Positions 2,381-58,320 of a stretch of 64,000 nt of DNA are shown here, in pieces (within the stretch, counting starts at the first letter, position 1; the number at the start of each line of letters is the position of its first letter). Below the pieces are notes generated by a model. The model saw only the letters and a program-made list of their open reading frames with translations. It was not told the origin of the DNA and made no database searches. The stretch covers positions 28,886 to 92,885 of the forward strand of contig CAZBWV010000088.1 in NCBI GenBank assembly GCA_964495805.1, in the 5' to 3' direction. The DNA is from an uncultured Calditrichaceae bacterium. Its GTDB lineage: Bacteria > Calditrichota > Calditrichia > RBG-13-44-9. The translations under genes and the position numbers were made by a program.

Positions 2381-2398
2381 TCCCTCTTTCCCAATTTT

Positions 2399-3673: not shown

Positions 3674-5014
3674 TCAATGTTCCAGTCCAAACCGTTCCAT
3701 CATGGAATACAACCGGCGGCGGGTGATTCCTAACAATTCCGCTGCCCGGGTTTTGTTGCCGCCAGTACGTTCCAATGCTTGCTGAATTAAAAATTTCTCA
3801 AATTCATCCAGTCGGAAGCCATCGTCCGGGATGCGAAAAGCATACGCCTCTTCCTGTTGTCCGTGCAAAGGCGGCAGGTCTTCCACCCGAATCACCGAAT
3901 CGGCCAGAATGGAGGCGCGCTCAATGACATTCTGCAGCTCCCGCACATTTCCCGGCCAGTCGTATTCCATCAGCCGACGCAATGCCCGGGGTTCAATGCC
4001 CACCACATCGCTCTCCTTCAAAAAATGATTCACCAGCTCAGGAATATCCTCCTTTCGCTCCCGAAGCGGAGGAATAACGATGGGAAACACATTGAGCCGG
4101 TAAAACAGGTCCTGGCGGAAACTGCCTTCCCGAACCATCTCTTCCAGATTGCGATTGGTGGCGGCAATTACCCGGGCATGCACCCGAATTCGTTCGTTGC
4201 CACCCAACCGATACAGTTCTTTGTTCTGAAGCACACGCAACAATTTGGATTGGAGCGCCAGACTCATGTCACCAATCTCGTCCAGAAAAATTGTGCCGTA
4301 CCCTGCTGATTCGAACTTCCCGATTTTCCGCTGGGTAGCGCCGGTAAATGCGCCTTTCTCATAGCCGAACAGTTCACTTTCCAGCAAGTTATCCGGGAGT
4401 GCAGCACAGTTGATTGCCACAAATGGGTGGTTCCTTCGTTTGCTTTGTTGATGGATGGTCTCCGCCACCAATTCCTTACCGGTGCCACTTTCCCCCAGAA
4501 TCAGCACCGTGGCATCCTTCTCCGCCGCCTTGCGAATCAGCTGATACACCTTGCGCATCTTCTCGCTGCGCCCAACAATGCGATTGAACAAAATCGGTTG
4601 TTCCGGTGCCGATTTGAGAGACCGATTTTCTTCCAGAATTCGCTTCTGTTCAATGATCCGGCGAATGCGCAGGATGAGCTCGTCCATTTCAAACGGCTTA
4701 ATCAGATAATCAAACGCTCCCTGCTTAAGCGCCTCCACTGCGGTTTTCTGGGTGGCAAAGGCAGTCATGATAATCACTTCCACATCCGGGTAACGGGATT
4801 TGATCTCTTTCAGTAATTCCAGTCCATCCATTCCGCCCATGCGCAGATCCGTTAGCACAATCTCCGCCCGATTTTGCTCCAGCCAGGTTAATGCTTCTTC
4901 GCCGGAGAGCACATAATCGGATTCAAAATTTTCCAGCTCCAGTGCCGCTTTAACCACCCGGCAGAATTTCTCTTCGTTGTCAACTATCAGTATGGGATAC
5001 ACGTCTCTGAACAA
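3674..5014 (-). CDS. sigma-54-dependent response regulator (NtrC/AtoC family): REC + AAA+ + Fis-type HTH
   Basis: Receiver domain with ILIVDNEE and the phospho-acceptor region VLTDLRMGGMDG. Sigma-54 activator motifs GESGTGKE and KGAFTGA. C-terminal HTH (RAAELLGITRRRLYSMM). Confidence 0.9.
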   Translation of the reverse strand: MFRDVYPILIVDNEEKFCRVVKAALELENFESDYVLSGEEALTWLEQNRAEIVLTDLRMGGMDGLELLKEIKSRYPDVEVIIMTAFATQKTAVEALKQGAFDYLIKPFEMDELILRIRRIIEQKRILEENRSLKSAPEQPILFNRIVGRSEKMRKVYQLIRKAAEKDATVLILGESGTGKELVAETIHQQSKRRNHPFVAINCAALPDNLLESELFGYEKGAFTGATQRKIGKFESAGYGTIFLDEIGDMSLALQSKLLRVLQNKELYRLGGNERIRVHARVIAATNRNLEEMVREGSFRQDLFYRLNVFPIVIPPLRERKEDIPELVNHFLKESDVVGIEPRALRRLMEYDWPGNVRELQNVIERASILADSVIRVEDLPPLHGQQEEAYAFRIPDDGFRLDEFEKFLIQQALERTGGNKTRAAELLGITRRRLYSMMERFGLEH

Positions 5015-6370: not shown

Positions 6371-6922
6371 TTAATGTTGGGGAACCGGATGGGCGATTTT
6401 GCTCCAGAAAGTTTTGAAATCGAACTTTTTGTACGTGGGCGATTTTTCGTTGTGGCAGGTTTTGCAATGATTCTCATCCGGCATCATCAAACCGTAATCT
6501 TCCGCTTTCAGTTCCCCTTTGTAAATGCCCTTCATTACTTTCATGGATTTATACTCGCTACCAGGACCGTGGCATGCTTCGCAACCCACACCTTCTTCCA
6601 TTTTGAAAGAGCTGGCAAACATGGAAGCATCTTTTCCGTAGCCGGTTACATGGCAAACCAGACATTTGTCACTCTTCTGGGGATCCTCGATTCCCATCTT
6701 TTTGGCAATTGCTTTTGCCTCATCGGTGCCCAGGGTTTCGTAGGCTTTGGCGTGGGGAGAGGCTGCCCAGATTTTAAACTGCTCACCGCTCCGCTTGGAA
6801 TTGTGGCACATCTTGCACTTTTTCACACCAATGTACTGAGGCGTTTTGGCGAATCCAGCCATGTCCAGCGCAAAGAAAATCATGACTGTTAACGCCAGGA
6901 TGATGCTCAGGGATTTCTTCAT
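6371..6922 (-). CDS. tetraheme c-type cytochrome, secreted
   Basis: Signal peptide MKKSLSIILALTVMIFFA. Four CxxCH haem-binding motifs: CKMCH, CLVCH, CEACH and CKTCH. Confidence 0.8.
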   Translation of the reverse strand: MKKSLSIILALTVMIFFALDMAGFAKTPQYIGVKKCKMCHNSKRSGEQFKIWAASPHAKAYETLGTDEAKAIAKKMGIEDPQKSDKCLVCHVTGYGKDASMFASSFKMEEGVGCEACHGPGSEYKSMKVMKGIYKGELKAEDYGLMMPDENHCKTCHNEKSPTYKKFDFKTFWSKIAHPVPQH

Positions 6923-12666: not shown

Positions 12667-12671
12667 TGAAA

Positions 12672-12699
12672 GGGCGAAATCCGTTTCGCCCTTTTTTTC
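12672..12699 (+). terminator. rho-independent terminator after the FKBP gene
   Basis: GGGCGAAAtccgTTTCGCCC followed by TTTTTTT. Confidence 0.7.
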
Positions 12700-12948: not shown

Positions 12949-13359
12949 TTACCCCAATCCTGTCTCATCCTTCCGCAGGAATAACATGAAAGCGTCGTTC
13001 ACGTCTTCGAATTCCAGCGCGTGGCGCTTGCAGCCGTTGCGGGAACAGATTTTAATCGTTCCACCATATTCCAGTTGCAAGCCAATCATGGGTGCTTTGC
13101 ATTCACATATCTGTAGAACCGGAAAAGGTTCGTGGCAGTGGGGACAGGAAAAAGCAGCAATGGCACCAACCACGTCTTTCACACCTTCAAATTTTTTTTC
13201 GTAGCTCCCGTAAATCTGACTTAAATAAATTTTCCCCAGTTTACCGCCCATCTTTGCTTCCAGCTCAATAGCCGGTAAACCATCCAGCTTCACTTTATCG
13301 GTCAGTAACGATTTGCCACAATTCGAACACTTAACTGGTATGTTAATCTGGTGGCCCAT
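12949..13359 (-). CDS. Cys-rich zinc-ribbon protein, last gene of the NuoEF-fusion operon
   Basis: Four Cys pairs: CSNCG, CPHCH, CEC and CSRNGC. It starts 88 nt downstream of the fusion gene on the same strand. Confidence 0.5.
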   Translation of the reverse strand: MGHQINIPVKCSNCGKSLLTDKVKLDGLPAIELEAKMGGKLGKIYLSQIYGSYEKKFEGVKDVVGAIAAFSCPHCHEPFPVLQICECKAPMIGLQLEYGGTIKICSRNGCKRHALEFEDVNDAFMLFLRKDETGLG

Positions 13360-13447
13360 ACCACCTCCCGGATTATTGATTTCGTATTTTTTTAAACTTC
13401 CCGGATTCCGGGAAGTTCTTCCCGATACAGTTATTTCAACGATTCCC

Positions 13448-16400
13448 TTATACTTTTAGCACAAAATGCAAATCGTCGGTTCGGTATTTCACATTTCGAG
13501 AGGCCGAAAACGAATCGAACCACTTGAGCAGGAAGTTTCCGCCATAAGGCACCGTCTGAATACGGGCTTTTTTCAGAAGCTCCGGTTTCGGGATGTACCC
13601 ATTCCGGAACAGAGCAATTTCCTGGCGATATTCCGGAATCATCTGCTCAATTTCTGCGGTTACTTCCTCTCCGCGTTGCAATTTAAATATTCGCCCCAGA
13701 GATGCGCTCAAATCCACCAGAATTTGCCAGTTCTCCCGACCAATCCTGGAGGGAAGGGCGGCTCGAAATCGTTGTACCCGACCTTCTGCATTGGTGATGG
13801 TTCCGCTGTTTTCCGCAAACGGTGCCAGAGGGAATACAACATCCGCCTGTTTTGCCGTTTCGGTCATAAACATATCTGCAACAATCAGGAATTGGTGGTC
13901 TGATTTTTTCCATTTCATCTCAGCGGTTCCCAGCGGATCCTGTGCCCAGAAGATGGCTGCAGGAATTCGACCCAATCGCCACTCTTTCAGCAGTGCTGCT
14001 GTGGAACGCCCCGGGCGTCGGGGTAACTCTGCTTCCCACTCCTGATTAAACCGCTCGATAACCTGGGGATTGTCCACCCGCTGGTAGCCGGGTAAATATT
14101 CCGGTAACATCCCCATATCCAGCATCCCCTGGAAGTTTACCTCTTCGGGAACCGAAAGCAGAATTTCGCTTTTACCCAGCACATAAGCCAGGGTATTCAA
14201 CCAGTGCACGGTTTCCGCATCTCTGCGCGAACGATGACACACAAAGAGAGGACGTTCCGCTTTCAGCAGTTTTCGGAAGAATTTTTTCAACTCACCGGTA
14301 CTCAAGCCAAAATCGCTCGCTTTCTTTTTACGCGAGATTTCTCCAAGCTCGTTGCGCAGCATCTCCAGGGTGGAAGCGGGAATATGGCGGGCATATTTCT
14401 CCTGTTCGATTACAGAATCCACCAGAAATTTAAGGAATTCCACCCGATGTTCTTCAGAAACGGGTAAATTCTCGCCCCAGCGCGCCAGACGGGAATCCGG
14501 TTGATTCAGGATGTAGAGCGGTTGCCCGCGTCGGGCGGCTTTGTGCAGTTTAATGTAAAGCACGGGATGCGTTTCCATGGGGTCGAAATTGCCCACCAGC
14601 AGGAAGTCGCTGCTTTCAATCTTCTCGAATGTAGCATTGGACATGGAAGCGCGGAGCAACTCCTCGGGTAGTTCATTGAGATTGGCCAGTGAGCCCACAT
14701 TGTTGGTGCCCAGCACCACACGGGCAAACTTTTGTAACAGATAGTTCTCCTCATTGGTTACCGTCGGAGAACCAAAGACTGCCCATTCGGTATCTTCTTT
14801 TTGCAGATCCATAATACGTCGCGCAGTAAACAGGTACGCCTCGTCCCAGCTCACCGGTTGCAACTCACCATCTTTGCGGATATGGGGTTGAGTGAGCCGT
14901 TCATCGCTATTCACATAGCGGAACCCATACCGTCCCTTCACGCACAGATTGCCAAATTCGTTAACCACTGCTTCGCGGTCGGCAGAAGTTTTCATCCAGC
15001 GGTCGTCCAGAATTTCCGCCTGCAGGCTGCAGCCCACACTACAATACTGGCAGATGGTTTTCTCCTTTTCCAGAATCCACGGACCGGGTTTTACGGCATC
15101 CGGTTTGTCCACCAGAGCACCGGTGGGACAGGTTTCCACGCACTGTCCGCAGGAGATGCACTGGCTCTCTGCCAGCGGAACTTCCAGCGTCGGTTTGACC
15201 TTGGTGTCGAATCCACGCTTCACAAACCCGAACACACCCAATCCCATCACCTCGTCGCAGATGCGCACACAGCGGCCGCAAAGGATGCACTTATTCAATT
15301 CAATCTTAATGAAAGGATGACTGTCATCGGGTGGCAGGTCATGGAATTCTCCCTGAAATGCAGTCTGGTCCGCCTGATAATCGGTGGAATGTTTCTGTAA
15401 GTCGCACTCGTAGAATGCCTGGCATCCACACTCCAGGCAGCGCAGGGATTCCTGATACACCTGCTCTTCACTGAAGCCCAGTTCCACTTCTTCCCAGCTG
15501 TGCGCCCGCTCCCGGGCATCCCGGACGGGCATCTTCTGACGCGGAATTTTTGGAACATCAGCAAAATCTTCCGGTTGCGGCGGTCTCAGATTTTCCCGAC
15601 GACTGATGAACGGCTTCCTGGGATAGGCCAGTTCCTCTCCGGTAATGTATTTGTGAATGGCCTGGGCAGCTTTTCCTCCCTGAGCGATGGCTTCGATGGC
15701 AGTGGCTGGTCCCAGCACTACATCTCCCCCGGCAAACACACCGGGAATGTTGGTTTCCATGATTTCCGGTTTGACTTCCAGAGTACCCCAGCGGGTGGTT
15801 TTAATCTCCAGCAGCTTGCCATCCTTCCCGGCATACTCCAGGTCCGGCTTCTGCCCGATGGCGGCAATGACCCAATCCACCTCAATAACATAGTTGGAAC
15901 CCTCGATGGGAATGGGACGGCGACGTCCACTGGCATCGGGTGGTCCAAGCTCCATTTTCACACACTCAATGCCGGTTACCCGATTGTTTTCGTCGGTAAG
16001 AATTTTCACCGGTGCGGTCAGAAAGGTGAATTTGACTCCTTCTTCCCGGGCTTCTTCGATTTCAATTTTATTGGCAGGCATTTCTTTGATGGTGCGCCGG
16101 TAAACGATGTTGACCTCATCGGCTCCCAGGCGCAGCGCAGTCCGGGCGGCATCCATGGCTGTGTTTCCACCACCAATTACAGCTACTTTGCCAGAAAGCT
16201 TTTTCACCTTGCCCAGCTTTACCTCTTCCAGAAACTCGATTCCAGCCAGCACTCCTTCGGCATCTTCATTCTCCACACGCATACTGGTGCTGGCTTGCGC
16301 ACCCAATCCCAGAAAAATAGCTTCGTAACCGTCGTCAAATAGCGAATCGATGGTGAAATCCCGTCCCAGAGCTTTATTGCAATAGATTTCCACCCCCAGT

Positions 16401-17164
16401 TTTGTGATGCCTTCAATTTCTTTATCCAGGATTTTTTCCGGAAGGCGGTATTCGGGAATTCCCCAGCGCAGCATGCCACCGGGTTTGGGCTTGGCATCGA
16501 AAATGTGCACAGTGTGGCCTTCCTGACGCAGGTAATAGGCAGCAGAAAGTCCCGCCGGACCGGCGCCGATTATGGCAATCCGATGACCGGTATCCGGTTT
16601 TACCTCGGGGAAGTAACGGTCGGGACTCTCCAGATCGTAGTCCGCCAAAAAACGTTTAACGTGGTCGATGGCTTCCGCTTCATCCACCAGATTTCGCCGA
16701 CATGCCAGCTCGCAAGGTCGCGTACACACCCGACCGCATACCGTGGGGAGCGGATTGGTTTGTTTGATGAGCGCAATGGCTTCCTTGTATTTGCCCAGGG
16801 CGGCCAGCGCCAGATATCCCTGTACATCCACCCCGGCAGGACAGGTTAGTTTACACGGTCCCAGACAATCTGCATAATGGTTGCTCAGCATCAGCTCCAG
16901 CGCCATTTTGCGCGCTTCGCGAATCGCCTCGCTGTTGGTGGTAATCTTCATCCCGGGGTTTACTTTAGTGGCACAGGACGGTACAAACGTTCGGGCACCC
17001 TCCACCTGCACCACACATAGAAAACAGGAGGTAAACGGTTCCAGCTGATCATCGTGGCAAAGTGTGGGAATGTGAATTCCCTGTTCCCGACACACCTGCA
17101 AAATCGTCTGACCGCTTTCGGCAATCACCGTCTTCCCGTCTATAAATACCTGCACTTTGCTCAT
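13448..17164 (-). CDS. multidomain FeS flavoprotein: 2Fe-2S ferredoxin + GltD-like NAD(P)H oxidoreductase + NuoG-type FeS clusters + degenerate formate-dehydrogenase-like (MopB) domain
   Basis: N-terminal 2Fe-2S fold (CHDD...C..C). GltD motifs CLGPCKLTCP...NPLPTVCGRVCTRPCELAC, FAD/NAD folds IAIIGAGPAGLSAA and VAVIGGGNTAMDAA. Cluster motifs CLECGCQAFYEC, CILCGRCVRIC and CISCGQCVETCP. MopB N-terminal cluster CQYCSVGC...LCVKG. The catalytic Cys/Sec-His region is replaced by SLANLNELPEEL. Confidence 0.8.
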   Translation of the reverse strand: MSKVQVFIDGKTVIAESGQTILQVCREQGIHIPTLCHDDQLEPFTSCFLCVVQVEGARTFVPSCATKVNPGMKITTNSEAIREARKMALELMLSNHYADCLGPCKLTCPAGVDVQGYLALAALGKYKEAIALIKQTNPLPTVCGRVCTRPCELACRRNLVDEAEAIDHVKRFLADYDLESPDRYFPEVKPDTGHRIAIIGAGPAGLSAAYYLRQEGHTVHIFDAKPKPGGMLRWGIPEYRLPEKILDKEIEGITKLGVEIYCNKALGRDFTIDSLFDDGYEAIFLGLGAQASTSMRVENEDAEGVLAGIEFLEEVKLGKVKKLSGKVAVIGGGNTAMDAARTALRLGADEVNIVYRRTIKEMPANKIEIEEAREEGVKFTFLTAPVKILTDENNRVTGIECVKMELGPPDASGRRRPIPIEGSNYVIEVDWVIAAIGQKPDLEYAGKDGKLLEIKTTRWGTLEVKPEIMETNIPGVFAGGDVVLGPATAIEAIAQGGKAAQAIHKYITGEELAYPRKPFISRRENLRPPQPEDFADVPKIPRQKMPVRDARERAHSWEEVELGFSEEQVYQESLRCLECGCQAFYECDLQKHSTDYQADQTAFQGEFHDLPPDDSHPFIKIELNKCILCGRCVRICDEVMGLGVFGFVKRGFDTKVKPTLEVPLAESQCISCGQCVETCPTGALVDKPDAVKPGPWILEKEKTICQYCSVGCSLQAEILDDRWMKTSADREAVVNEFGNLCVKGRYGFRYVNSDERLTQPHIRKDGELQPVSWDEAYLFTARRIMDLQKEDTEWAVFGSPTVTNEENYLLQKFARVVLGTNNVGSLANLNELPEELLRASMSNATFEKIESSDFLLVGNFDPMETHPVLYIKLHKAARRGQPLYILNQPDSRLARWGENLPVSEEHRVEFLKFLVDSVIEQEKYARHIPASTLEMLRNELGEISRKKKASDFGLSTGELKKFFRKLLKAERPLFVCHRSRRDAETVHWLNTLAYVLGKSEILLSVPEEVNFQGMLDMGMLPEYLPGYQRVDNPQVIERFNQEWEAELPRRPGRSTAALLKEWRLGRIPAAIFWAQDPLGTAEMKWKKSDHQFLIVADMFMTETAKQADVVFPLAPFAENSGTITNAEGRVQRFRAALPSRIGRENWQILVDLSASLGRIFKLQRGEEVTAEIEQMIPEYRQEIALFRNGYIPKPELLKKARIQTVPYGGNFLLKWFDSFSASRNVKYRTDDLHFVLKV

Positions 17165-17436
17165 TTCTTGCTCCCATTCTTTAAAAAATTCCCGACATTC
17201 ATCCCCTCACCTCCGCTTTTCCGTCTATCTCTCAAAGCCATAACTTGCTCGCAATTCATTTCCATGTAAAAACCACATGTGCACAAAAATGAAACAGCTT
17301 CACCCCATCATCCCGTTCATTTTTTCCTGATCCACAATTTCCAATTCCCCAACACCTGGACTCCCCCACTTCTTTCAACCCTTTAAACCCCCATTCCCTT
17401 ACATCCCTTTCATTTTACATTTTACATTTCAACACC

Positions 17437-17520
17437 TCCCCTATCCCCCCATTTCCCCTATTCCCCTTATATCCCTTATATCCCCTATATCCCCTACATC
17501 CCCTATATCCCGTATTTCCC
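17437..17520. repeat. tandem 9-bp repeat, about 9 copies of ATCCCCTAT on the top strand (GGGGATATA-type G-tracts on the operon mRNA strand)
   Basis: Direct read: tcccctatc cccccattt cccctattc cccttatat cccttatat cccctatat cccctacat cccctatat cccgtattt. It lies in a 385-bp pyrimidine-rich non-coding spacer between the nuoF-like gene and the fusion gene. Confidence 0.7.
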
Positions 17521-17550
17521 TTCTACCCCTCACCTCCCTCCAACCCTTCC

Positions 17551-19371
17551 TCACGCCTCTTCCACTTCCTCCTTCACACCGGTTAAAATTTCGATGGCAT
17601 CGAACTTACACACATCGTAACAGGCGCCGCAGCGGGTACACATCTCTTCGTTGATGTAGTGCGGTTTCAGTTTTTCGCCGGTGATGGCGCCCACGGGACA
17701 GGCACGCAGGCACACCATGCAGCCAGTACAGGCGTCGGCAATAACCCGATAGGTAATCAGCGCCCGACAGCTTTTGGCGGGACATTCCTTGCGATAGATA
17801 TGGGCTTCGTACTCTTCCCGGAAGTATTTCAGCGTGGTTAGCACCGGATTGGGAGCCGTTTGCCCCAGACCGCACAGCGAACTTTTTTTGACGTTCTCCG
17901 CCAGTTTTTCCAGCTTATCCAGATCTTCCGGTTTGCCTTCGCCATTGGTGATGCGTTCCAGAATTTCCAGCATTCGTTTGGTACCCAGGCGGCAGAAGGT
18001 GCATTTACCGCACGATTCTTCCTGGGTAAAATTCAGGAAGAACTTCGCCACATCCACCATACAGGTGCGATCGTCCATGACCACCATACCACCGGAGCCC
18101 ATGATGGCGCCGGTTTTATTCAGCGATTCATAATCCACCGGTGTATCCAGCAGCTCTGCCGGGACGCACCCGCCGGAGGGACCACCCAACTGCACCGCTT
18201 TGAACTGTCGGTCGTCCTTGATGCCACCACCAATATCGAAAATGACTTCTTTCAGGGTCATTCCCATTGGTACTTCCACCATACCGCCGCGTTTAATTTT
18301 ACCGGCCAGAGCAAACACTTTGGTGCCCTTGCTTTTTTCCGTACCATAGCGGGCGAACTGGTCGGCGCCGTTCAGGATAATCCATGGCACATTGGCGTAG
18401 GTTTCCACATTGTTGATATTGGTGGGCTTCCCCCACAATCCTTTCACGGCAGGGAACGGCGGACGCAGGCGGGGCATACCACGCTTGCCTTCCACACTGG
18501 CAATCAGTGCTGTTTCCTCGCCGCACACAAACGCACCCGCTCCCAGCTTCAGCGAAATATCGAAAGAGAAATCGCTTCCCAGAATCTTCTTCCCCAGGAA
18601 TCCCTTTTCCCGCGCTTGCTGGATGGCAATTTCCAGCCGTTGCACCGCCAGAGGATACTCCGCGCGCACATAAATAATCCCTTCCTGCGCACCGATCGCA
18701 TATCCGGCAATCAGCATCCCTTCCAGCACGCTATGCGGGTCACCTTCCATGACGCTGCGATCCATAAAAGCGCCGGGGTCTCCTTCGTCTCCGTTGCAGA
18801 TGATATACTTGGTTTTTCCCGGTGACTGGCGGGCAAATTGCCATTTGATACCGGTGGGGAAACCGGCACCACCGCGTCCGCGCAAACCGGACTGCTTAAT
18901 CTCTTCAATGACCTCCTGCGGACTCATCCGGAACAGCACCTTGCGCAGCGCCTGGTAACCTTTTTGTGCCAGATAATCGTCGATATGCTCGGGATTGATT
19001 TTCCCGGCATTGCGCAGCACAATGCGAACCTGCCGCTCGAATAGCTCATTTTCCGCCTGCTCAATCCCCTCGCCTTTCACCACCCAATCTTCAATAATTT
19101 CCCTGTTCCGGAGGTGTTTTTCCAGAATCTGGGGCAGTTTCTTGGGAGTCACATCCCCGTAAATTACCGGGGGCATATCGGGCATCTGGATTTCGATGAG
19201 CGGTTCGCGGTAGCAGGCACCGATACAGCCGGTTTTTTCCAGTTCAACGGGTAAATTTTCCTGAGCAATCTTTTTCTCCAGCGCAGCGTACACATCGGCT
19301 GCTCCGGCAGCAATGCCACAACTGGCCATTCCCACCAATATCTTTATTTTTCCGTTTTTCGGGGAATTCAT
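17551..19371 (-). CDS. NuoF-like NADH-binding FMN/FeS flavoprotein (HydB/HndC/StnB-type) with a C-terminal 2x[4Fe-4S] ferredoxin domain
   Basis: GAGGAGFPTGIKW, CGKCTFCRLGT, and C-terminal motifs CTGCMVCLRACP and CTRCGACYDVC. Length is 606 aa. Confidence 0.85.
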   Translation of the reverse strand: MNSPKNGKIKILVGMASCGIAAGAADVYAALEKKIAQENLPVELEKTGCIGACYREPLIEIQMPDMPPVIYGDVTPKKLPQILEKHLRNREIIEDWVVKGEGIEQAENELFERQVRIVLRNAGKINPEHIDDYLAQKGYQALRKVLFRMSPQEVIEEIKQSGLRGRGGAGFPTGIKWQFARQSPGKTKYIICNGDEGDPGAFMDRSVMEGDPHSVLEGMLIAGYAIGAQEGIIYVRAEYPLAVQRLEIAIQQAREKGFLGKKILGSDFSFDISLKLGAGAFVCGEETALIASVEGKRGMPRLRPPFPAVKGLWGKPTNINNVETYANVPWIILNGADQFARYGTEKSKGTKVFALAGKIKRGGMVEVPMGMTLKEVIFDIGGGIKDDRQFKAVQLGGPSGGCVPAELLDTPVDYESLNKTGAIMGSGGMVVMDDRTCMVDVAKFFLNFTQEESCGKCTFCRLGTKRMLEILERITNGEGKPEDLDKLEKLAENVKKSSLCGLGQTAPNPVLTTLKYFREEYEAHIYRKECPAKSCRALITYRVIADACTGCMVCLRACPVGAITGEKLKPHYINEEMCTRCGACYDVCKFDAIEILTGVKEEVEEA

Positions 19372-19383
19372 CGGAATCGTCCT

Positions 19384-19872
19384 TTATTTTTGGTATTTCT
19401 TGAGAATTCGTTTGGTTTCCCGGTCGGTTAAACGGCCGTAAGTGGTGTCGTCTATCATCATCACCGGGGCCAGACTACAACACCCCAGGCAGGCCACCGA
19501 TTCCAGGGTAAACATGCCATCCGGTGTGGTATCCCCATCGGAGATGCCCAGAAATTCCTCGCACGCTTCGGTGATGCGTTCCGCACCGCTTACATGGCAG
19601 GCCGTTCCGTGACACACTTTGATGATATGCTTACCTACCGGTTTCAGACGAAATTGAGAATAAAATGTGGCAACCCCATAAATCTGACTCACATCGGTTC
19701 GGGTGGCCTCGGCTATGCGTACAATGGCTTCTTTAGGCAGATAACCATAAATTTTCTGCGTTTCCTGCAAAAGCTGAATAATCGTACCCGGTTTTTTGGC
19801 CAATTTTTTAAGAATACGATTCAGGGGTTTCAAATCGATGGATTCGGCGGTTTGTGCCAGACTTTCTGCCAT
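19384..19872 (-). CDS. NuoE-like thioredoxin-fold 2Fe-2S protein (HndA/StnA-type)
   Basis: CHGTACHVSG ... CLGCCSLAPV motifs of the 24-kDa subunit family. It starts 12 nt upstream of the nuoF-like gene. Confidence 0.85.
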   Translation of the reverse strand: MAESLAQTAESIDLKPLNRILKKLAKKPGTIIQLLQETQKIYGYLPKEAIVRIAEATRTDVSQIYGVATFYSQFRLKPVGKHIIKVCHGTACHVSGAERITEACEEFLGISDGDTTPDGMFTLESVACLGCCSLAPVMMIDDTTYGRLTDRETKRILKKYQK

Positions 19873-20295: not shown

Positions 20296-21207
20296 TTAAT
20301 ACAGCTTCCGCCGCTTAATCAGATACCGCAGCAGGGCTCGATCGAATGGTTCATCTATGAAAATTTGCTGAAAGTCGATGCGAAACTTCAGGCACTCCCT
20401 TTGAAGCAACCCGTAGAATGCTTCCACTGCCTGGCGATATCGCTGCTGTAAAAAATAGGGTTGCGTTTTTATCCGTTCTCCGGTTTCCATATCCACAAAC
20501 ACCGCATCATCGGTAAAATTGAAATAACGGTCGTTGGGGTCCAGGATGTTAAACACCAGGATTTCGTGCTTGTAGTGCCGGAAGTGCTTTAGTCCCTGCA
20601 AGATTCGCTCCGGATCTTCAAACAAAAAATCGGTAAGCAGGACGATCAACCCGCGCCGTTTAATTTTTTCCGCCAGTTCGTGCAGGGTATCACTTACCAC
20701 GGTGCGCCGCTGTACCGGCTGAAGTCGGGCAAGTTCCTGTAAAATAAAATGGAGATATGCCTGCGACGATTTGGGTGGTAAAAATTTTTCGATCTTATCG
20801 GAAAAGGTCACCAATCCTACCGCATCCCGCTGTTTGACGAACAGATAACTAAACGCAGCAGCCAGATAGGTGGCATACTGCAGTTTGGTCATCTTGCCGC
20901 TGCCGTAGCCCATGGAGCCAGACACATCCATTAACAGGTAAGCGCGTAAATTGGTTTCCTCTTCGTACTGCTTGATGTAGTAGCGATTGGTACGGCCATA
21001 CACCTTCCAGTCGATATCCCGGATGTTGTCGCCGGGATTGTAGGGGCGATGCTCACTGAATTCCACGCTGAAACCGTGATAGGGACTTTTGTGCAATCCT
21101 ACCAGAAACCCTTCCACAATAAAGCGGGCAATCAGCTCCAGATTTTTCAGACTGGCTACCGCTTCCGGCAAAATGGCGGCAGCCGCAGATTTTTTTTCTT
21201 CTGGCAT
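20296..21207 (-). CDS. DUF58-family protein (vWA-like, MoxR-associated family), orphan copy
   Basis: DUF58 core YHGFSVEFSEHRPYNPGDNIRDIDWKVYGRTNRYYIKQYEEE. There is no MoxR gene adjacent. Confidence 0.7.
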   Translation of the reverse strand: MPEEKKSAAAAILPEAVASLKNLELIARFIVEGFLVGLHKSPYHGFSVEFSEHRPYNPGDNIRDIDWKVYGRTNRYYIKQYEEETNLRAYLLMDVSGSMGYGSGKMTKLQYATYLAAAFSYLFVKQRDAVGLVTFSDKIEKFLPPKSSQAYLHFILQELARLQPVQRRTVVSDTLHELAEKIKRRGLIVLLTDFLFEDPERILQGLKHFRHYKHEILVFNILDPNDRYFNFTDDAVFVDMETGERIKTQPYFLQQRYRQAVEAFYGLLQRECLKFRIDFQQIFIDEPFDRALLRYLIKRRKLY

Positions 21208-21367: not shown

Positions 21368-22327
21368 ATGGCAGAGACGAAGCACTACAAGGTGATTATC
21401 ATCGGTTCCGGCCCGGCCGGTTTAACGGCAGCCATTTACACCGCACGCGCCAATTTAAATCCCCTGGTTGTGGAAGGAACCCAGCCGGGTGGTCAGCTCA
21501 CCATTACCACCGAAGTGGAAAACTTCCCCGGCTTCCCTGAAGGCATTCAGGGTCCGGAGCTGATGGATAAAATGCACGAACAGGCAGAGAAGTTCGGTAC
21601 GGAATTCTATTACGGTACAGTCACTAAAGCGGATTTAAGCAAACGACCATTTGAACTGGAGGTGGAAGAGGTCAATTTTACCTGCGACACCTTAATTATT
21701 GCCTCCGGTGCGACCGCCCGGTTGCTGGGACTGGAATCGGAAAAGCGTTTGATGGGACACGGCGTGTCCGCCTGTGCCACCTGCGATGGTTTCTTCTTTA
21801 CCGGTAAAGAAGTGGTCGTGGTGGGCGGTGGCGATTCCGCCATGGAAGAAGCAACCTTCCTGACCAAATTTGCCTCCAGAGTAACCATCATCCATCGACG
21901 CGACAAATTGCGTGCTTCCAAAATCATGCAACAACGCGCATTCGATAATCCCAAAATCGATTTTCTGTGGAACAAGGTGGTGATCGACATTCTGGGAGAT
22001 GAGGAAACCGGTGTGACCGGGGTGCGCCTGAAAGACACCATTACCGGCGAAGAGAGCGAATTCAAATGCGACGGAGTGTTCCTGGCTATCGGCCATGTAC
22101 CCAATACACAAATTTTCCGGGGACAACTGGAAATGGATGACAAGGGTTACCTGATAACCAAACCGAAAAGTATGGCTACCAGTGTACCGGGAGTGTTTGC
22201 TGCCGGGGACGTGCAGGACCCCATTTACCGCCAGGCGATTTCCGCCGCAGGAAGCGGCTGTATGGCTGCCCTGGATGCCCAGCATTATCTGGAAGAACAG
22301 GAATATCGGGAGAAAGAAGGAAAGTAA
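21368..22327 (+). CDS. trxB: thioredoxin-disulfide reductase
   Basis: FAD fold [14 protein letters not shown], redox-active [14 protein letters not shown] fold [12 protein letters not shown]. Confidence 0.9.
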
Positions 22328-27432: not shown

Positions 27433-29655
27433 TCACTCTTCCGGGTGAACATTGCGGTCTAACAGCGAAACAGCAATTCCCAGAAGCAACAGGATGGAGC
27501 CTATCCACAACACGCTGATGAGCGGTTTCTCACTCACTTCAATCGCTAAAATATCCCGCGGTTCCTGCTGACCCGGTGCCGGAGCATGCAACACCAGATT
27601 GACCCGGTGAGAGGAAGCGTCCAGCGACTCAATTTGAACCTTATATGGCGTTCCGGGTATATCCACCCGATCGGACTGAAGCTTGCCGTTTTCGTACCAC
27701 ATGGCTGGCTGAAGGGTGTATTCGTGGGCACCATCCTCCCCGGTTACCGAAACGGTCAGCTCCGCTTTTACCGTCATGGGGGCACTGGTGCTGTGTTCCC
27801 CCACAATAAACCGGTTAAAGGTAATAATCAGGTTATCGATGGTCTGGGTTTCTCCATGGGTCAGGCTAATTTTGCGCGAATTCCCGAATTTGGCAGGCAT
27901 AAACGAAATAGGCGAAATGTAAATGTCCTTTTTCAAGCCCACCTGCACGTGGGGAGAAATCATGTAGCTTTTGGTGTAATCGCTGTAGTAAAACTGAGGT
28001 TCTGCTTCGTACACCCGGTTTCCCTGTTTCACCAGCAGTTTCACCCGATCCTTGCCATCCGGTTTACGCACAAAGTTGACGAATTCCACCTCATAACCGA
28101 AGCGGGTTCGTACAAACTCCCCCGCTGGCAGGGTAACTTTTTCGCTGGTATCGTACCAGGAGGAAGTGATGATGCCAATAATCATAAAAGCCAGTCCGGC
28201 ATGGGCCAGATAAGCACCGGCTTTCACCGGAACTTTTCGCAGGTAGCGAAAAATCACCCATCCGTTGGTAAAAATGGTAAACAGAGCGAGAAAGGTAAGC
28301 AAAACAGACATGGGTTGGTTCATCCCCAACAGCACGGCCACCACGGTAATCACCAGTGCCAGGCCAGCACTCACGAGAATTACGTTCCATTCGCGCAGAC
28401 GGGCGACCCTCCAGGCCAGCAGGGGAGCCAGGGCCATGGAAAGCAGCAAAAAAATTGCTACCGGCTGGCTGATGGTATTGTAAAAACTGGTGGAAACGTT
28501 GGAGGGTTGCCCCAGCAATCGGGTGTAAATGGGTGAGGATGTGGCTATGAATACGATAATGCCGGTGAACAGCAGGGTTAACATACCAATCAGAATAAAG
28601 GTCTCCCGGCTGAAAAGCCCCTCAGCAAATTTGTTCCCTTCCATGTAGCGAAAGGTTTTAAAAAAGAGGTACAGAAAGAGTCCGGCAAAGAAGGTAACAA
28701 ACGCCACCAGATACAGGTTCAAATCGGTTTCGGCGAAGGAATGGACGGAAAAATCGCCCAACACTCCGGAGCGAGTCAGAAATGAGCCCCACAGCACGGC
28801 AATAAAGGACATGCCTGCCAGGAACAGATTGGTGCGTACCAGTCCCCGTTGCCGCTGCTGAATGATCAATCCGTGGAGCAATACGGCGGTAAACAACCAG
28901 GGCACCAGGGAGGCGTTTTCCACCGGGTCCCAGGCCCAGTAACCACCCCAGCCCAGAGTTACATAGGACCAGTAGCCGCCTAAAATAATCCCGGCACCTA
29001 ACATCAGGGTGGAGAAGATGACCCAGGGGCGCGCGTCACGAATCCAGCCGTAAAAATCGCGGATGGTCATGGCGTTCAGCGCCATGGCAAATCCCACCGC
29101 AGTGGCGCTGTATCCGATAAACATTACCGGGGGATGAATAATCATCCAGGGATTTTCCAGCAAAGGATTCAGTCCGGCTCCATCGGCCGGTGTGAAACCC
29201 ACCGGTACTTCCGCATGGGTGTGCCAGATGTATGCAAAAGGACTTTTTTTCATTAAAATAAGCAGCAAAAACAGATTCACCAGCATGAAGTAGAACATCA
29301 CCAGCGGCTTTTGTCGGGTGACGGTGGAAATCAAAATCATTCCGTAAACGGTCGCAAACACCAGCCACAGCAAAAAGGTTCCTTCCTGCCCGGCCCAGAA
29401 GGTGGAAATCAAATAATACGTGGAAAGCTGGGAGGAAGTATAACTGTACACATAATTCAATTGAAAATTGTGGGTAAAAATATTGAAATAAAGCAGTGCG
29501 GAGGCAATTATCACACCGATTCCCATAAAACTGAAACCGGTGTTGGCCAGCCGCAGAAACCGCTCATCTTTTTCCTGATAATACAGCCAATACGCCGCGG
29601 TAGAAACCGCCGCAGCAATAAACGCCAGAGAAATGGATAAAATACCGCTTATCAT
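27433..29655 (-). CDS. ccmF: cytochrome c-type biogenesis protein CcmF (haem lyase component)
   Basis: WWD domain WGGYWAWDPVENASLVPWL and a multi-TM protein of about 740 aa. I took the start at MISGIL, which overlaps the ccmE stop by 4 nt. Confidence 0.85.
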   Translation of the reverse strand: MISGILSISLAFIAAAVSTAAYWLYYQEKDERFLRLANTGFSFMGIGVIIASALLYFNIFTHNFQLNYVYSYTSSQLSTYYLISTFWAGQEGTFLLWLVFATVYGMILISTVTRQKPLVMFYFMLVNLFLLLILMKKSPFAYIWHTHAEVPVGFTPADGAGLNPLLENPWMIIHPPVMFIGYSATAVGFAMALNAMTIRDFYGWIRDARPWVIFSTLMLGAGIILGGYWSYVTLGWGGYWAWDPVENASLVPWLFTAVLLHGLIIQQRQRGLVRTNLFLAGMSFIAVLWGSFLTRSGVLGDFSVHSFAETDLNLYLVAFVTFFAGLFLYLFFKTFRYMEGNKFAEGLFSRETFILIGMLTLLFTGIIVFIATSSPIYTRLLGQPSNVSTSFYNTISQPVAIFLLLSMALAPLLAWRVARLREWNVILVSAGLALVITVVAVLLGMNQPMSVLLTFLALFTIFTNGWVIFRYLRKVPVKAGAYLAHAGLAFMIIGIITSSWYDTSEKVTLPAGEFVRTRFGYEVEFVNFVRKPDGKDRVKLLVKQGNRVYEAEPQFYYSDYTKSYMISPHVQVGLKKDIYISPISFMPAKFGNSRKISLTHGETQTIDNLIITFNRFIVGEHSTSAPMTVKAELTVSVTGEDGAHEYTLQPAMWYENGKLQSDRVDIPGTPYKVQIESLDASSHRVNLVLHAPAPGQQEPRDILAIEVSEKPLISVLWIGSILLLLGIAVSLLDRNVHPEE

Positions 29656-30026
29656 GAGGAGGCTCCTTCCGCTTGATATTTCGAAGGACATTTCACCAGT
29701 AGCTTATCCGCCAGAAATTTACCATCTTCGTACCGGCCAACTACCACCACTTCCGTGGCCTGTTCCAGATTGGCTGGTTTCACTCCGTGATACACCACTT
29801 CAAACTCTTCGCCCGAATCATCTTTCATGCGAAACATCAACACCTTCCGCTGTAAATCGTAAAATTCGCTGCCCTCAATCCGCTTCCCCTTCACCTGAAC
29901 CGTAGATTGACTCTTCTTAGCCTCTTCCAGAGAAACATACGGGGTTAACGACTTGCTCAAATTGATCGCAGCAAATATGATGAACACCAGAATAATCCCT
30001 ATTCCAATGATGTATTTCGGTTTCAT
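29652..30026 (-). CDS. ccmE: haem chaperone CcmE, CxxxY variant
   Basis: N-terminal anchor then OB-fold (FRMKDDSGEEFEVVYHGVKP...VVVGRY...FLADKLLVKCPSKY). The haem-binding position carries C-P-S-K-Y instead of the canonical H-x-x-x-Y. Confidence 0.8.
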   Translation of the reverse strand: MKPKYIIGIGIILVFIIFAAINLSKSLTPYVSLEEAKKSQSTVQVKGKRIEGSEFYDLQRKVLMFRMKDDSGEEFEVVYHGVKPANLEQATEVVVVGRYEDGKFLADKLLVKCPSKYQAEGASS

Positions 30027-37243: not shown

Positions 37244-37309
37244 TCAACAAGTTTGAACTAAAAATTCTGAACTCATATAAAATCAGGCTCTCAATGAACC
37301 GGAAATTGC

Positions 37310-45225: not shown

Positions 45226-45322
45226 TGATCCGTTCCCGATACTTTGAAAAATTGTGTTTCCTGCCTTACAAAACTTCTCAACCCATCTAACCGGTGAAAC
45301 CGGTACCACCATCTTCCTGAGT

Positions 45323-46216: not shown

Positions 46217-46306
46217 TTCCGCTTTTCCAGTCGTCTCGTCCGATTCCTTCTACAAAACGGCTCTTTAAGCCTCACTTTCTGGGGATTCGATAGCTTCCGT
46301 CTTTTA

Positions 46307-58171: not shown

Positions 58172-58285
58172 GCGCCATTACTCAGCGCCCAACAGCCTTT
58201 CCGGTAATATGATTTTACTTTCCTGCCTAAAATCAGACAAAAATCATTTAGGGCTCACCGTTCGGAATGCAACATTGCCAAAACA

Positions 58286-58320
58286 ATCCCCCCTATATCC
58301 CCTATGTCCCTACTCCCCTT
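58286..58320. repeat. second locus of the 9-bp CCCCTAT(A/G)T G-tract repeat, about 4 copies
   Basis: atcccccct atatcccct atgtccct actcccct lies in the divergent rplM/etfB intergenic region. The G-rich strand is again the minus strand, upstream of rplM. Confidence 0.5.

What the first reader, a model, noticed from the sequence alone, without database searches (positions are those of the whole stretch)
12949..19872. NuoE-NuoF operon continuing into a 1238-aa fusion of Fd, GltD, NuoG-FeS and FdhA-like domains plus a zinc-ribbon protein: Stn/Sfr-like candidate electron-bifurcating NADH/NADPH/ferredoxin module in an unusual fused architecture
Four co-directional genes. The first is a NuoE-like 2Fe-2S protein. 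The second is a NuoF-like FMN/NADH protein with an extra 2x[4Fe-4S] domain. The third is a single polypeptide that joins an N-terminal 2Fe-2S fold, a complete GltD-like NAD(P)H-binding flavoprotein, NuoG-type His/Cys clusters and a molybdopterin-oxidoreductase fold. The fourth is a 136-aa protein with four Cys pairs. NuoEF plus a GltD-containing partner is the composition of the Sporomusa-type Nfn (StnABC) and Geobacter SfrAB families. Here the SfrB-like and SfrA-like parts are fused in one protein, with GltD inserted after the 2Fe-2S domain. The conserved Cys-rich fourth gene is not part of the described complexes.
Basis: partly seen in the sequence, partly recalled or inferred. Interest (0 to 1): 0.7.

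Follow-up and report, generated by a model that had tools for sequence, protein, structure and literature searches.

The report
Stn transhydrogenase operon plus Cys-rich partner
This is an ordinary member of a known family of electron-splitting enzymes that balance NADH, NADPH and ferredoxin in anaerobes; the only new part is the small cysteine-rich fourth gene, whose domain is fused to a core subunit of related enzymes in other bacteria.

Summary
The four co-directional genes exist exactly as described, on the minus strand at 12949-19872. The first three are a clear StnABC / NfnABC-Bfu operon, the electron-bifurcating NADH-dependent ferredoxin:NADP+ oxidoreductase. Their best solved-structure matches are Sporomusa ovata StnABC (8OH5), Caldicellulosiruptor NfnABC (9BOV) and Thermococcus NfnABC (9N5U), with E-values from 1e-50 to 1e-273.

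The 1238-aa "unusual fusion" is the standard StnC/NfnA architecture: 2Fe-2S, GltD, NuoG clusters and a dead Fdh-like domain. S. ovata StnC (1172 aa) has the same layout. At least 8000 homologues in many phyla matched at E <= 1e-50, and the 116 long hits examined share the architecture. It is not a frameshift artefact and not a formate dehydrogenase: Sec140, His141 and Arg333 are replaced and the cofactor cap domain is missing.

The 136-aa gene is the interesting part. It belongs to an unannotated family with eight invariant Cys and no Pfam or fold match. It follows stnC in all 14 Calditrichota genomes examined. In 29 genomes of other phyla it lies away from stn genes. Its domain is fused to the C-terminus of NuoE-like (BfuC) subunits in 79 of 80 fetched metagenome loci, each beside a NuoF-like gene wherever downstream sequence was available. 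It is therefore probably an accessory module of Bfu-type enzymes. Its function is unproven.

The parts
19384..19872 (-). stnA (BfuC/NfnC). NuoE-like thioredoxin-fold [2Fe-2S] subunit, 162 aa. Cluster Cys are C87, C92, C128 and C132.
   Evidence: PF01257, E 4e-54. The best PDB hits are 9n5u_C NfnC, 8oh5_A StnA and 9bov_C, at E 4e-50 to 6e-51, ahead of HydC.
17551..19371 (-). stnB (BfuB/NfnB). NuoF-like FMN/NAD(H) subunit, 606 aa. Domains: N-terminal thioredoxin-like domain (5-85), FMN domain (158-329), SLBB (353-401), NuoF [4Fe-4S] (440-524) and C-terminal 2x[4Fe-4S] (540-595).
   Evidence: It is 64% identical to 8oh5_B and 66% identical to 9bov_B. All 21 Cys are conserved in both. PDB bit scores are 911, 896 and 872 for the Nfn/Stn B subunits, against 783 or less for hydrogenase HydB.
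17165..17550 (-). 386-nt stnB-stnC spacer. On the sense strand it is 40% G and 4% C. It holds the 9-nt tandem repeat TATAGGGGA x9.4 (17437-17520) and four canonical G-quadruplex motifs. It appears to be a strain-specific insertion within the operon.
   Evidence: The closest relative, L016 (StnB 93% identical), has a plain 67-nt spacer. Rfam found nothing.
13448..17164 (-). stnC (BfuA/NfnA), 1238 aa. Nucleotide ranges of its parts: [2Fe-2S] Fer2_4 domain 16931-17158; GltD-like FAD/NADPH module with two [4Fe-4S] 15635-16861; linker with the Cx2CxCx5C cluster 15317-15634; NuoG-type His/Cys plus 2x[4Fe-4S] 15095-15316; Molybdop_Fe4S4 14906-15064; catalytically dead Fdh-like domain 13703-14899.
   Evidence: Identity to S. 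ovata StnC is 43% overall and 53% over residues 1-388. The Cys motifs account for one [2Fe-2S] and six [4Fe-4S], the cluster count of StnC. K170, R240 (equivalent to StnC R239), FAD motif GAGPAG (200) and NADP motif GGGNTA (331) are present. FdhH Sec140/His141/Arg333 align to N830/E831/P1006, and there is no PF01568 cap domain.
13397..13415 (-). Hairpin CTTCCCGG-AAT-CCGGGAAG in the 88-nt stnC to gene-4 spacer. It is followed by TTTAAAAAAA, which is not a good intrinsic terminator. A GGAGGT ribosome-binding site lies at 13363-13368.
   Evidence: Read directly from the sequence. The terminator scan found no terminator in this spacer.
12949..13359 (-). Fourth gene, a 136-aa Cys8(His) protein. The model is all-beta with a C-terminal helix. 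Invariant residues are C11, C14, C72, C75, C85, C87, C105, C110 and H113. It is a stand-alone member of an unannotated domain family that is fused to NuoE-like subunits elsewhere.
12668..12695 (.). Bidirectional GC-rich hairpin (12-bp stem) with T-runs. It lies between the convergent FKBP gene (+ strand, ends 12666) and the stn operon, and is the likely end of the transcript.

Best explanation
Genes 1-3 encode a StnABC / NfnABC-Bfu complex of an uncultured Calditrichia bacterium. [quoted passage not shown]

The mechanism below is inferred by homology to the solved S. ovata and C. saccharolyticus enzymes.
1. NADP(H) binds the GltD-like module of StnC and exchanges a hydride with FAD.
2. Electrons move one at a time through the two GltD [4Fe-4S] clusters, the Cx2CxCx5C cluster, the N-terminal [2Fe-2S] and a NuoG-type [4Fe-4S] to the [4Fe-4S] next to the FMN of StnB.
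3. The FMN, that cluster and the [2Fe-2S] of StnA act together as the bifurcation site.
4. One branch reduces NAD+ at the FMN.
5. The other branch sends low-potential electrons through the mobile C-terminal domain of StnA to the two C-terminal [4Fe-4S] clusters of StnB and on to ferredoxin.

The Fdh-like C-terminal domain of StnC has lost its catalytic residues and its cofactor cap. It acts as a scaffold, as in S. ovata.

Gene 4 encodes a small protein with eight invariant Cys, probably binding two metal ions. I infer that it is a detachable version of a domain that other lineages carry fused to the C-terminus of the NuoE-like subunit. In Calditrichota it would then be an accessory partner of the StnAB core, not a chance neighbour. 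This last step is inference from gene fusion and synteny, not from any assay.
For: Identity of the enzyme:
- The top PDB matches for all three subunits are 8OH5 (StnABC), 9BOV (Csac NfnABC) and 9N5U (NfnABC), at E 1e-50 to 1e-273. They rank above the HydABC, Hox and Fdh complexes.
- The gene order nuoE-nuoF-gltD/nuoG matches SOV_1c07740-60.
- All 21 Cys of StnB are conserved.
- The StnC motifs give one [2Fe-2S] and six [4Fe-4S], as in the structure.
- K170, R239 and the FAD and NADP motifs are conserved.
- The Fdh catalytic triad is lost and the cap domain is absent.
- The Bfu-defining domains are present.

Fourth gene:
- It lies directly downstream of stnC in 13 of 13 genome loci that are Calditrichota by title (12) or by 64% StnC identity (1).
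- It also does so in a deep-branching Calditrichia (StnC 46% identical, gene-4 product 50% identical), with a 15-nt gap and entirely different flanks on both sides.
- A profile search finds 353 representative clusters. Of the top 150, 14 are C-terminal fusions to PF01257 NuoE-like proteins, and one more is joined to a NuoF N-terminus.
- All eight Cys are invariant between the free and fused forms.
- In 79 of 80 metagenome loci the domain is in frame behind NuoE. A NuoF-like gene follows in every locus with enough downstream sequence.
Against: - No biochemical data exist for this lineage.
- Identity to characterised StnC is only 43%.
- The protein sits in a subclade that differs at a cluster-ligand region. 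Here and in all 115 closest long homologues position 143 is Cys and position 114 is Ile/Val. The three solved enzymes have I/I/L at 143 and C/C/V at 114.

Against the fourth gene as a partner:
- Purified S. ovata and C. saccharolyticus enzymes have three subunits.
- Two non-Calditrichota stnABC loci lack the gene.
- None of 29 non-Calditrichota genomes carrying a free homologue has stn or nuoEF within 10 kb, and these loci share no common neighbour.
- The domain is also fused to CBS pairs, an adenylate cyclase and a response regulator. This fits a general metal-binding or sensory module as well as a dedicated Bfu subunit.
- The metagenome scan used a pattern taken from the fused forms, so its 79/80 figure is not an unbiased frequency.
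Confidence: 0.8

Rival explanations
1. The fourth gene is functionally unrelated to Stn. It is a small zinc-ribbon protein that is a conserved neighbour in Calditrichota only through inherited gene order. Its fusions to NuoE reflect a promiscuous metal-binding or sensory domain.
For: None of 29 non-Calditrichota genomes shows linkage, and those loci share no common neighbour. Several Calditrichia also share the downstream genes plsY-gcvT-ftsK-lolA, which shows inherited synteny. The domain is also fused to CBS, cyclase and response-regulator domains. Characterised Stn/Nfn-Bfu complexes are heterotrimers.
Against: The pair stnC plus gene 4 survives where both flanks have changed. This holds in the window, where FKBP/RelA lie downstream and DUF58 upstream, and in L059, where cytochrome bd/Rrf2 lie upstream and a radical-SAM gene and ruvCAB downstream. 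The intergenic gaps are 15-101 nt. NuoE is by far the most frequent heterologous fusion partner (14 of 150 clusters). The fused genes always sit in nuoF-containing operons.
Confidence: 0.4
2. The complex is not a bifurcating transhydrogenase. It is instead a non-bifurcating NAD(P)H oxidoreductase of the SfrAB or Nso kind, for example an NADPH-dependent metal, sulfur or ferredoxin reductase.
For: The N-terminal 639 residues score 706 bits against NF009454/PRK12814, an SfrB-like model. Kremp et al. note StnC's similarity to SfrB, SfrA and NsoC. The Cys143 subclade has never been assayed.
Against: SfrAB has no NuoE/NuoF partners. Here the partners carry every feature of the bifurcating BfuBC core: the N-terminal thioredoxin-like domain, the C-terminal 2x[4Fe-4S] and all conserved Cys. 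Identity to bifurcating NfnB/StnB is 64-66%. The PRK12814 score is below that model's cut-off of 916.
Confidence: 0.1
3. The large protein is a formate dehydrogenase alpha subunit, making this an NAD(P)/ferredoxin-linked Fdh-Bfu complex. Several databases annotate its homologues this way.
For: JGI and NCBI label many homologues 'formate dehydrogenase major subunit' or 'formate dehydrogenase subunit alpha'. PF00384 and PF04879 are present.
Against: TIGR01591 scores 255 against a cut-off of 666 and covers only profile positions 1-502 of 672. FdhH Sec140, His141 and Arg333 align to Asn, Glu and Pro. The alignment ends at FdhF residue 512 of 715. PF01568 is absent. The same domain is inactive in the solved StnC.
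Confidence: 0.02

Closest known systems
StnABC of Sporomusa ovata (Sporomusa-type Nfn; PDB 8OH5/8OH9; Kremp 2020 PMC7483475; Kumar 2023 PMC10482914)
   Same: The gene order is the same: nuoE-like, nuoF-like, then the gltD/nuoG fusion. StnC has the same domain order and the same count of clusters (one [2Fe-2S], six [4Fe-4S]). K170 and R239 are conserved, and the Fdh-like domain is inactive. Every Cys of StnB is conserved.
   Different: StnC is 43% identical and 66 residues longer here, mostly through loops in the Fdh-like domain that resemble true FdhF. Position 114 is Val rather than Cys. An extra GltD-type Cys is present at 143. The organism belongs to a phylum not listed among Stn carriers in those papers. 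A conserved fourth gene follows stnC.
NfnABC-Bfu of Caldicellulosiruptor saccharolyticus (PDB 9BOV/9BP5; PMC11829005) and the NfnABC of PDB 9N5U/9N5V (probably the archaeal Thermococcus sibiricus enzyme of PMC12018979; I did not verify that link)
   Same: These are the best overall PDB matches (StnC E 3e-265; StnB 66% identical). They are Type 1 Bfu enzymes with the NADPH module inside BfuA and a flavobicluster core made of the B1 cluster, FMN and the C1 cluster.
   Different: In Csac the B5 site holds Zn. Which metal occupies that site here cannot be told from sequence. The 9N5U NfnA is shorter (963 aa). None of these has an associated Cys8 protein.
SfrAB of Geobacter sulfurreducens
   Same: SfrB resembles the 2Fe-2S plus GltD part of StnC, and SfrA resembles the NuoG/Fdh-like part.
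   Different: SfrAB consists of two separate polypeptides and has no NuoE/NuoF bifurcating module.
NfnAB (NfnSL), the classical bifurcating transhydrogenase
   Same: It catalyses the same overall reaction, and NfnB/NfnL is homologous to the GltD module.
   Different: It has no NuoEF core, and bifurcation occurs at the FAD of NfnB. In Stn that FAD does not bifurcate.
Uncharacterised Bfu-like operons in Phycisphaerae, LCP-89 and other environmental bacteria, with the gene order [NuoE-Cys8 domain]-[NuoF-GltD]-[Fer2_4/2x4Fe4S]-[Glu_synthase-like] (found here: L062, L081, L142)
   Same: They contain the same modules (NuoE, NuoF, GltD, NuoG N-terminal clusters and the Cys8 domain), joined in a different way.
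   Different: In these operons the Cys8 domain is fused to NuoE and GltD is usually fused to NuoF. There is no Fdh-like domain. A PF01645 (GltB-like) protein is added.

Membership tests
Stn / Nfn-Bfu (Type 1 BfuABC) | Three consecutive co-directional genes: nuoE-like, nuoF-like and a gltD/nuoG fusion. | tested here: met
   Compare SOV_1c07740-60 in PMC7483475.
Stn / Nfn-Bfu (Type 1 BfuABC) | BfuB carries the FMN domain (IPR011538/PF01512), SLBB (IPR019554/PF10531), the NuoF 4Fe-4S domain (IPR019575/PF10589) and a ferredoxin-type 4Fe-4S domain (IPR017896). BfuC carries IPR002023/PF01257 (Schut 2022). | tested here: met
   PF01512 scores 171 bits, PF10589 124 bits, Fer4 49 bits and PF01257 183 bits. 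SLBB scores 25.0 bits, just under its 27-bit cut-off.
Stn / Nfn-Bfu (Type 1 BfuABC) | The bifurcating-type BfuB extras are present: an N-terminal thioredoxin-like domain (B5 site), a Cys/His B2 site and a C-terminal 2x[4Fe-4S] (B3, B4). | tested here: met
   All 21 Cys align with Cys in 8oh5_B and 9bov_B. PF01257 matches residues 5-85 and Fer4 matches 540-595.
Stn / Nfn-Bfu (Type 1 BfuABC) | StnC/NfnA has one [2Fe-2S] and six [4Fe-4S], an FAD motif and a GxGxxA NADP(H) motif. | tested here: met
   Cys at 36/47/50/64; 100/104/108 plus 143/147/151/155; 576/579/581/587; 626-636; 669-679; 705/708/712/741. GAGPAG at 200 and GGGNTA at 331. Cluster count is from PMC10482914.
Stn / Nfn-Bfu (Type 1 BfuABC) | StnC residues shown by mutagenesis to matter: K170 (strictly conserved ligand of cluster C7), R239 and C114. 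| tested here: inconclusive
   K170 and R240 (equivalent to R239) are conserved. C114 is Val here, as in the NfnA of 9N5U. An extra Cys143 is present, here and in all 115 closest homologues.
Stn / Nfn-Bfu (Type 1 BfuABC) | The Fdh-like domain is catalytically inactive. | tested here: met
   Alignment to E. coli FdhF gives U140 to N830, H141 to E831 and R333 to P1006. The alignment ends at FdhF residue 512 of 715, and there is no PF01568.
Stn / Nfn-Bfu (Type 1 BfuABC) | The subunits are closer to Stn/Nfn-Bfu subunits than to hydrogenase or Fdh Bfu subunits. | tested here: met
   Ranking of PDB hits for all three subunits. No formal phylogeny was built.
Stn / Nfn-Bfu (Type 1 BfuABC) | The enzyme shows Fd- and NAD+-dependent NADPH oxidation, and it assembles as a tetramer of heterotrimers. 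| not testable with these tools
   This needs purified enzyme.
Formate dehydrogenase alpha (TIGR01591 / FdhF) | Catalytic Sec/Cys-His pair and Arg, the bis-MGD cap domain (PF01568), and a score above the model cut-off. | tested here: not met
   TIGR01591 scores 255 against a cut-off of 666, covering positions 1-502 of 672. Catalytic residues are replaced. PF01568 is absent.
SfrAB | Two separate subunits (SfrB GltD-like and SfrA NuoG/Fdh-like), with no NuoEF partners. | tested here: not met
   Here there is a single 1238-aa polypeptide preceded by nuoE/nuoF homologues.
NfnAB (NfnSL) | An NfnA/NfnS FNR-like small subunit next to the GltD-like subunit. | tested here: not met
   The locus holds no such gene. 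The neighbours are a DUF58 protein, a thioredoxin-reductase-like protein and an FKBP protein.
Known zinc-ribbon or Fe-S families (for the 136-aa protein) | A score above the gathering threshold of a Pfam/NCBIfam family, or a fold match to a solved structure. | tested here: not met

The most novel reading that the evidence does not exclude
The 136-aa Cys8 protein is a genuine fourth, dissociable subunit of the Calditrichota Stn complex. It would represent an undescribed metal-binding accessory domain of the Bfu family. Other lineages have this domain welded to the C-terminus of BfuC, next to the mobile [2Fe-2S] domain that gates low-potential electron flow. It could tune or regulate bifurcation, ferredoxin docking or complex assembly.
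Probability: 0.3. Interest if true: 0.65.

Novelty: new variant of a known kind. Interest (0 to 1): 0.42.

Why it matters
The enzyme itself only extends the known Stn/Nfn-Bfu family to Calditrichota, where a 2017 genome paper on Caldithrix abyssi (PMC5317091) did not mention it. It also corrects database labels that call these proteins formate dehydrogenases.

The useful lead is the Cys8 domain. It is conserved, absent from Pfam, and has no structural relative. It is attached, by fusion or by operon, to the NuoE-like subunit of many Bfu-type operons. The C-terminal domain of that subunit is the moving part in current models of Bfu bifurcation. An extra conserved metal-binding domain attached there is therefore a concrete, testable candidate for a regulatory or structural element that the solved complexes lack.

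Tried and rejected
- Rfam scan of the whole window at gathering thresholds found nothing, so the G-rich spacer is not a known RNA.
- A Rex-type operator (TGTGA-N6-TCACA, up to 1 mismatch) is absent from the window.
- Promoter and terminator scans of the operon were at chance level, apart from the hairpin at 12668-12695.
- Clustering the neighbours of the free 136-aa homologues outside Calditrichota found no shared neighbour in more than 6 of 32 loci.
- Alignment A2, which mixes free and fused domains, was too divergent for a locus scan. I replaced it with A3, which holds fused forms only.
- I considered a sequencing-frameshift fusion and rejected it, because full-length homologues are abundant.
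- I considered a true formate dehydrogenase and rejected it.


Full report
**The observation**

The window holds four co-directional ORFs on the minus strand, at exactly the reported outer coordinates:
- 19872..19384, 162 aa
- 19371..17551, 606 aa
- 17164..13448, 1238 aa
- 13359..12949, 136 aa

- Gene 1 is a NuoE-type thioredoxin-like [2Fe-2S] protein.
- Gene 2 is NuoF-like, with a C-terminal 2x[4Fe-4S] domain.
- Gene 3 joins Fer2_4, a complete GltD-like module, NuoG-type clusters, Molybdop_Fe4S4 and a Molybdopterin domain.
- Gene 4 has four Cys pairs.

The 1238-codon frame is uninterrupted. Its nearest homologues are 1218-1278 aa long and cover 93-100% of it, so there is no frameshift merger.

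**What genes 1-3 are**

A sequence search of the Protein Data Bank gives the same three complexes at the top for all three proteins:
- 9BOV/9BP5, Caldicellulosiruptor saccharolyticus NfnABC
- 8OH5/8OH9, Sporomusa ovata StnABC
- 9N5U/9N5V, NfnABC

E-values are about 1e-50 for the small subunit, 1e-261 to 1e-273 for the NuoF-like subunit and 1e-200 to 1e-265 for the large one. Bifurcating hydrogenases, Hox and formate dehydrogenases rank lower.

S. ovata StnC is 1172 aa. It has a [2Fe-2S] domain at 1-101, a GltD fold at 102-565, NuoG clusters, and an FdhF-like domain at 683-1172 that is catalytically inactive. It holds six [4Fe-4S] clusters and one [2Fe-2S] (PMC10482914). Csac NfnA is 1178 aa with the same three parts (PMC11829005). 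Kremp et al. had already noted that StnC resembles SfrB at its N-terminus and SfrA at its C-terminus, and that the three genes are consecutive (PMC7483475). The fusion is therefore the family's normal state.

It is also very common. The 120 listed hits carry the same Pfam set, and most are 1218-1278 aa long. The few that carry source names come from Calditrichia, Deltaproteobacteria, Thermoanaerobaculaceae, Vicinamibacterales and other groups.

**Residue-level tests**

StnB:
- It is 64% identical to S. ovata StnB and 66% identical to Csac NfnB.
- All 21 of its Cys align with Cys in both.

StnC:
- It is 43% identical to S. ovata StnC. Identity is 53% over residues 1-388 and 32% in the Fdh-like part. 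This lies inside the 31-49% range that Kremp et al. list for candidate Stn proteins.
- Its Cys motifs account for one [2Fe-2S] and six [4Fe-4S] clusters.
- The FAD motif (GAGPAG, 200) and the NADP-type GxGxxA motif (GGGNTA, 331) are present.
- K170 is conserved. It is the strictly conserved ligand of the FAD-proximal cluster. R239 is conserved as R240.

The Fdh-like domain was aligned to E. coli FdhF, fetched from NC_000913.3:
- Sec140, His141 and Arg333 align to N830, E831 and P1006.
- The alignment stops at FdhF residue 512 of 715.
- The cofactor-cap domain PF01568 is absent.
- TIGR01591 scores 255 against a cut-off of 666.

The many database labels of "formate dehydrogenase major subunit" are therefore wrong for this protein.

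One difference from the solved enzymes is consistent. The window protein and all 115 closest long homologues have Cys at position 143, which matches what I recall (from memory, not checked with the tools) as the ancestral GltD motif VCGRVC, and Ile/Val at position 114. The three solved enzymes have I/I/L at 143 and C/C/V at 114. This marks an unassayed subclade. It may give the FAD-proximal cluster a different ligand set. I treat this as a minor variant.

**Organism and context**

The nearest genome representative is a Calditrichia MAG (JALWDQ01), with 84-93% amino-acid identity across the four proteins.

The neighbours are housekeeping genes: a DUF58 protein, a thioredoxin-reductase-like protein, an FKBP protein, RelA/SpoT and GreA.

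The 2017 Caldithrix abyssi genome paper predates Stn and does not mention this operon. The Stn and Bfu papers list Firmicutes, Proteobacteria, Synergistetes and Euryarchaeota as carriers.

**The fourth gene**

The 136-aa protein belongs to a conserved family with nine invariant residues: C11, C14, C72, C75, C85, C87, C105, C110 and H113.
- It reaches no Pfam or NCBIfam threshold.
- It has no PDB sequence relative.

Synteny within Calditrichota is consistent.
- One scan of species-representative genomes returned 42 loci.
- Thirteen of them have stnC immediately upstream of the gene. Twelve of these are named Calditrichota and one is unnamed, with StnC 64% identical.
- A deep-branching Calditrichia (StnC only 46% identical, gene-4 product 50% identical) keeps the gene 15 nt after stnC, with completely different genes on both sides.
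- In the window too, both flanks differ from those of other Calditrichia.

Synteny outside Calditrichota is absent.
- The 29 genomes from Desulfobacterales, Syntrophaceae, Fermentibacteria and Eisenbacteria have no stn or nuoEF gene within 10 kb. Twenty-seven of them have at least 1 kb of upstream sequence.
- They share no common neighbour.
- Two non-Calditrichota stnABC loci lack the gene.
- The characterised enzymes purify as heterotrimers.

**The fusion evidence**

I searched a profile of the family against 1.84 billion representative proteins. It found 353 clusters. The best 150 divide as follows:

| Form | Clusters |
|---|---|
| Free-standing | 97 |
| Tandem duplicate | 12 |
| Fused to the C-terminus of a full NuoE-like protein (PF01257) | 14 |
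| Joined to a NuoF N-terminus | 1 |
| Other longer forms (including CBS pairs, an adenylate cyclase with AAA_16, and a response regulator) | 26 |

All eight Cys are invariant between the free and fused forms.

A metagenome scan with a pattern from the fused forms found 303 loci. Of the 80 fetched, 79 carry the domain in frame behind NuoE. Every locus with enough downstream sequence has a nuoF-like gene next.

Two loci were annotated in detail, along with one LCP-89 genome. They show the operon [NuoE-Cys8]-[NuoF or NuoF-GltD]-[Fer2_4 + 2x4Fe4S]-[PF01645 Glu_synthase-like]. In 35 of the 46 loci that extended past nuoF, GltD follows directly on NuoF, read as a NuoF-GltD fusion; the shared frame was confirmed only in L062 and L142.

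Databases call the fused proteins simply NuoE or "NAD(P)H-dependent oxidoreductase subunit E". The listed Pfam hits give no family for the C-terminal extension, apart from a zinc-ribbon-type hit in a few entries. They occur in Phycisphaerae, Sedimentisphaerales and LCP-89.

I found no paper in the searchable library that mentions such a domain on BfuC, HydC or NuoE-like subunits.

**Interpretation of the fourth gene**

Two independent lines link the Cys8 domain to the NuoE/NuoF core of Bfu-type enzymes: gene fusion in other phyla, and invariant adjacency across deep divergence in Calditrichota.

The free Calditrichota form has an extra C-terminal helix that the fused forms lack. That helix could serve as a docking element. 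This is speculation.

Two points weaken the case for a dedicated role:
- Free homologues in other phyla are unlinked to Bfu genes.
- The domain is also fused to signalling domains.

The metal is unknown. Eight Cys in four knuckles, together with weak double-zinc-ribbon hits, suggest two Zn sites. Rubredoxin-like Fe is not excluded.

I put the accessory-subunit reading at roughly 0.3 as a specific claim. I put "functionally linked in some way" somewhat higher.

**Other features of the locus**

The stnB-stnC spacer is 386 nt, 40% G and 4% C on the sense strand. It carries a 9-nt tandem repeat and four of the window's five canonical G-quadruplex motifs. The closest relative has a plain 67-nt spacer, so this is a strain-specific insertion of unknown effect. 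A related short repeat lies at 58278-58335.

The 88-nt stnC to gene-4 spacer holds an 8-bp hairpin without a proper T-tract, and a strong ribosome-binding site. A bidirectional terminator-like hairpin lies at 12668-12695.

**Verdict**

The Stn assignment is right. The "unusual fused architecture" is the known StnC/NfnA design and is very common.

The locus is a new phylum-level member of a known enzyme family, within an unassayed Cys143 subclade. It is worth a modest follow-up because of the Cys8 partner gene, which points to an undescribed accessory domain of Bfu-type bifurcating enzymes.

Noticed in passing
window 17165-17550 (sense strand is minus); related copy at 58278-58335: A 386-nt G-rich, C-poor spacer lies inside the operon. 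It carries the 9-nt tandem repeat TATAGGGGA x9.4 and four of the window's five canonical G-quadruplex motifs. The fifth motif is in a related intergenic repeat near 58.3 kb. The spacer is absent from the closest relative, L016, which has 67 nt there.
   Followed up: partly
L062 7395-13934; L081 7389-12529; L142 9001-15399; loci L062-L141 in general: An apparently uncharacterised Bfu-like operon type, with gene order [NuoE fused to Cys8 domain]-[NuoF, usually fused to GltD; about 1060-1080 aa in L062 and L142]-[HoxU-like Fer2_4 + 2x4Fe4S, about 225 aa]-[PF01645 Glu_synthase-like, about 530 aa]. In L062 a sigma-54 two-component pair lies upstream. The metagenome scan found 303 loci. Named relatives come from Phycisphaerae, Sedimentisphaerales and LCP-89.
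   Followed up: partly
window 13448-17164, residues 114 and 143 of the 1238-aa protein: Subclade marker. This protein and all 115 closest long homologues have Cys143 and Ile/Val114. The three structurally solved StnC/NfnA proteins have I/I/L at 143 and C/C/V at 114. This may change the ligands of the FAD-proximal [4Fe-4S] cluster.
   Followed up: partly
L060 757-3692 and L061 651-3630: The stnABC-like operons of a Deltaproteobacteria MAG and of a JGI metagenome contig whose StnC cluster is named Thermoanaerobaculaceae are preceded by DRTGG, HATPase_c and HydA-like (Fe_hyd_lg_C) genes. This looks like a putative sensory or regulatory set. It is absent from the Calditrichota loci.
   Followed up: no
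window 1766-3649 (minus strand): An AAA_15/AAA_21 (AbiEii-like/OLD-type) ATPase of 416 aa is followed by a 204-aa protein with no Pfam hit. This may be a two-gene defence-like pair. It sits next to a sigma-54 response regulator (3674-5014).
   Followed up: no
window 33558-38305 and 43200-47296; also 20296-21207: Two Bat/MoxR-type sets (BatA/VWA, BatD, TPR, MoxR AAA_3) are present. A lone DUF58 gene lies directly upstream of stnA. Cytochrome c maturation genes (CcmF-like, 27433-29691 and 30204-30872) and a multihaem c554-like cytochrome (6371-6922) are also in the window.
   Followed up: no
window 21368-22327 (+): A thioredoxin-reductase-like pyridine nucleotide-disulfide oxidoreductase (319 aa) lies about 1.5 kb upstream of the stn operon on the opposite strand. 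It is another NADPH consumer, and there is no evidence of linkage.
   Followed up: no
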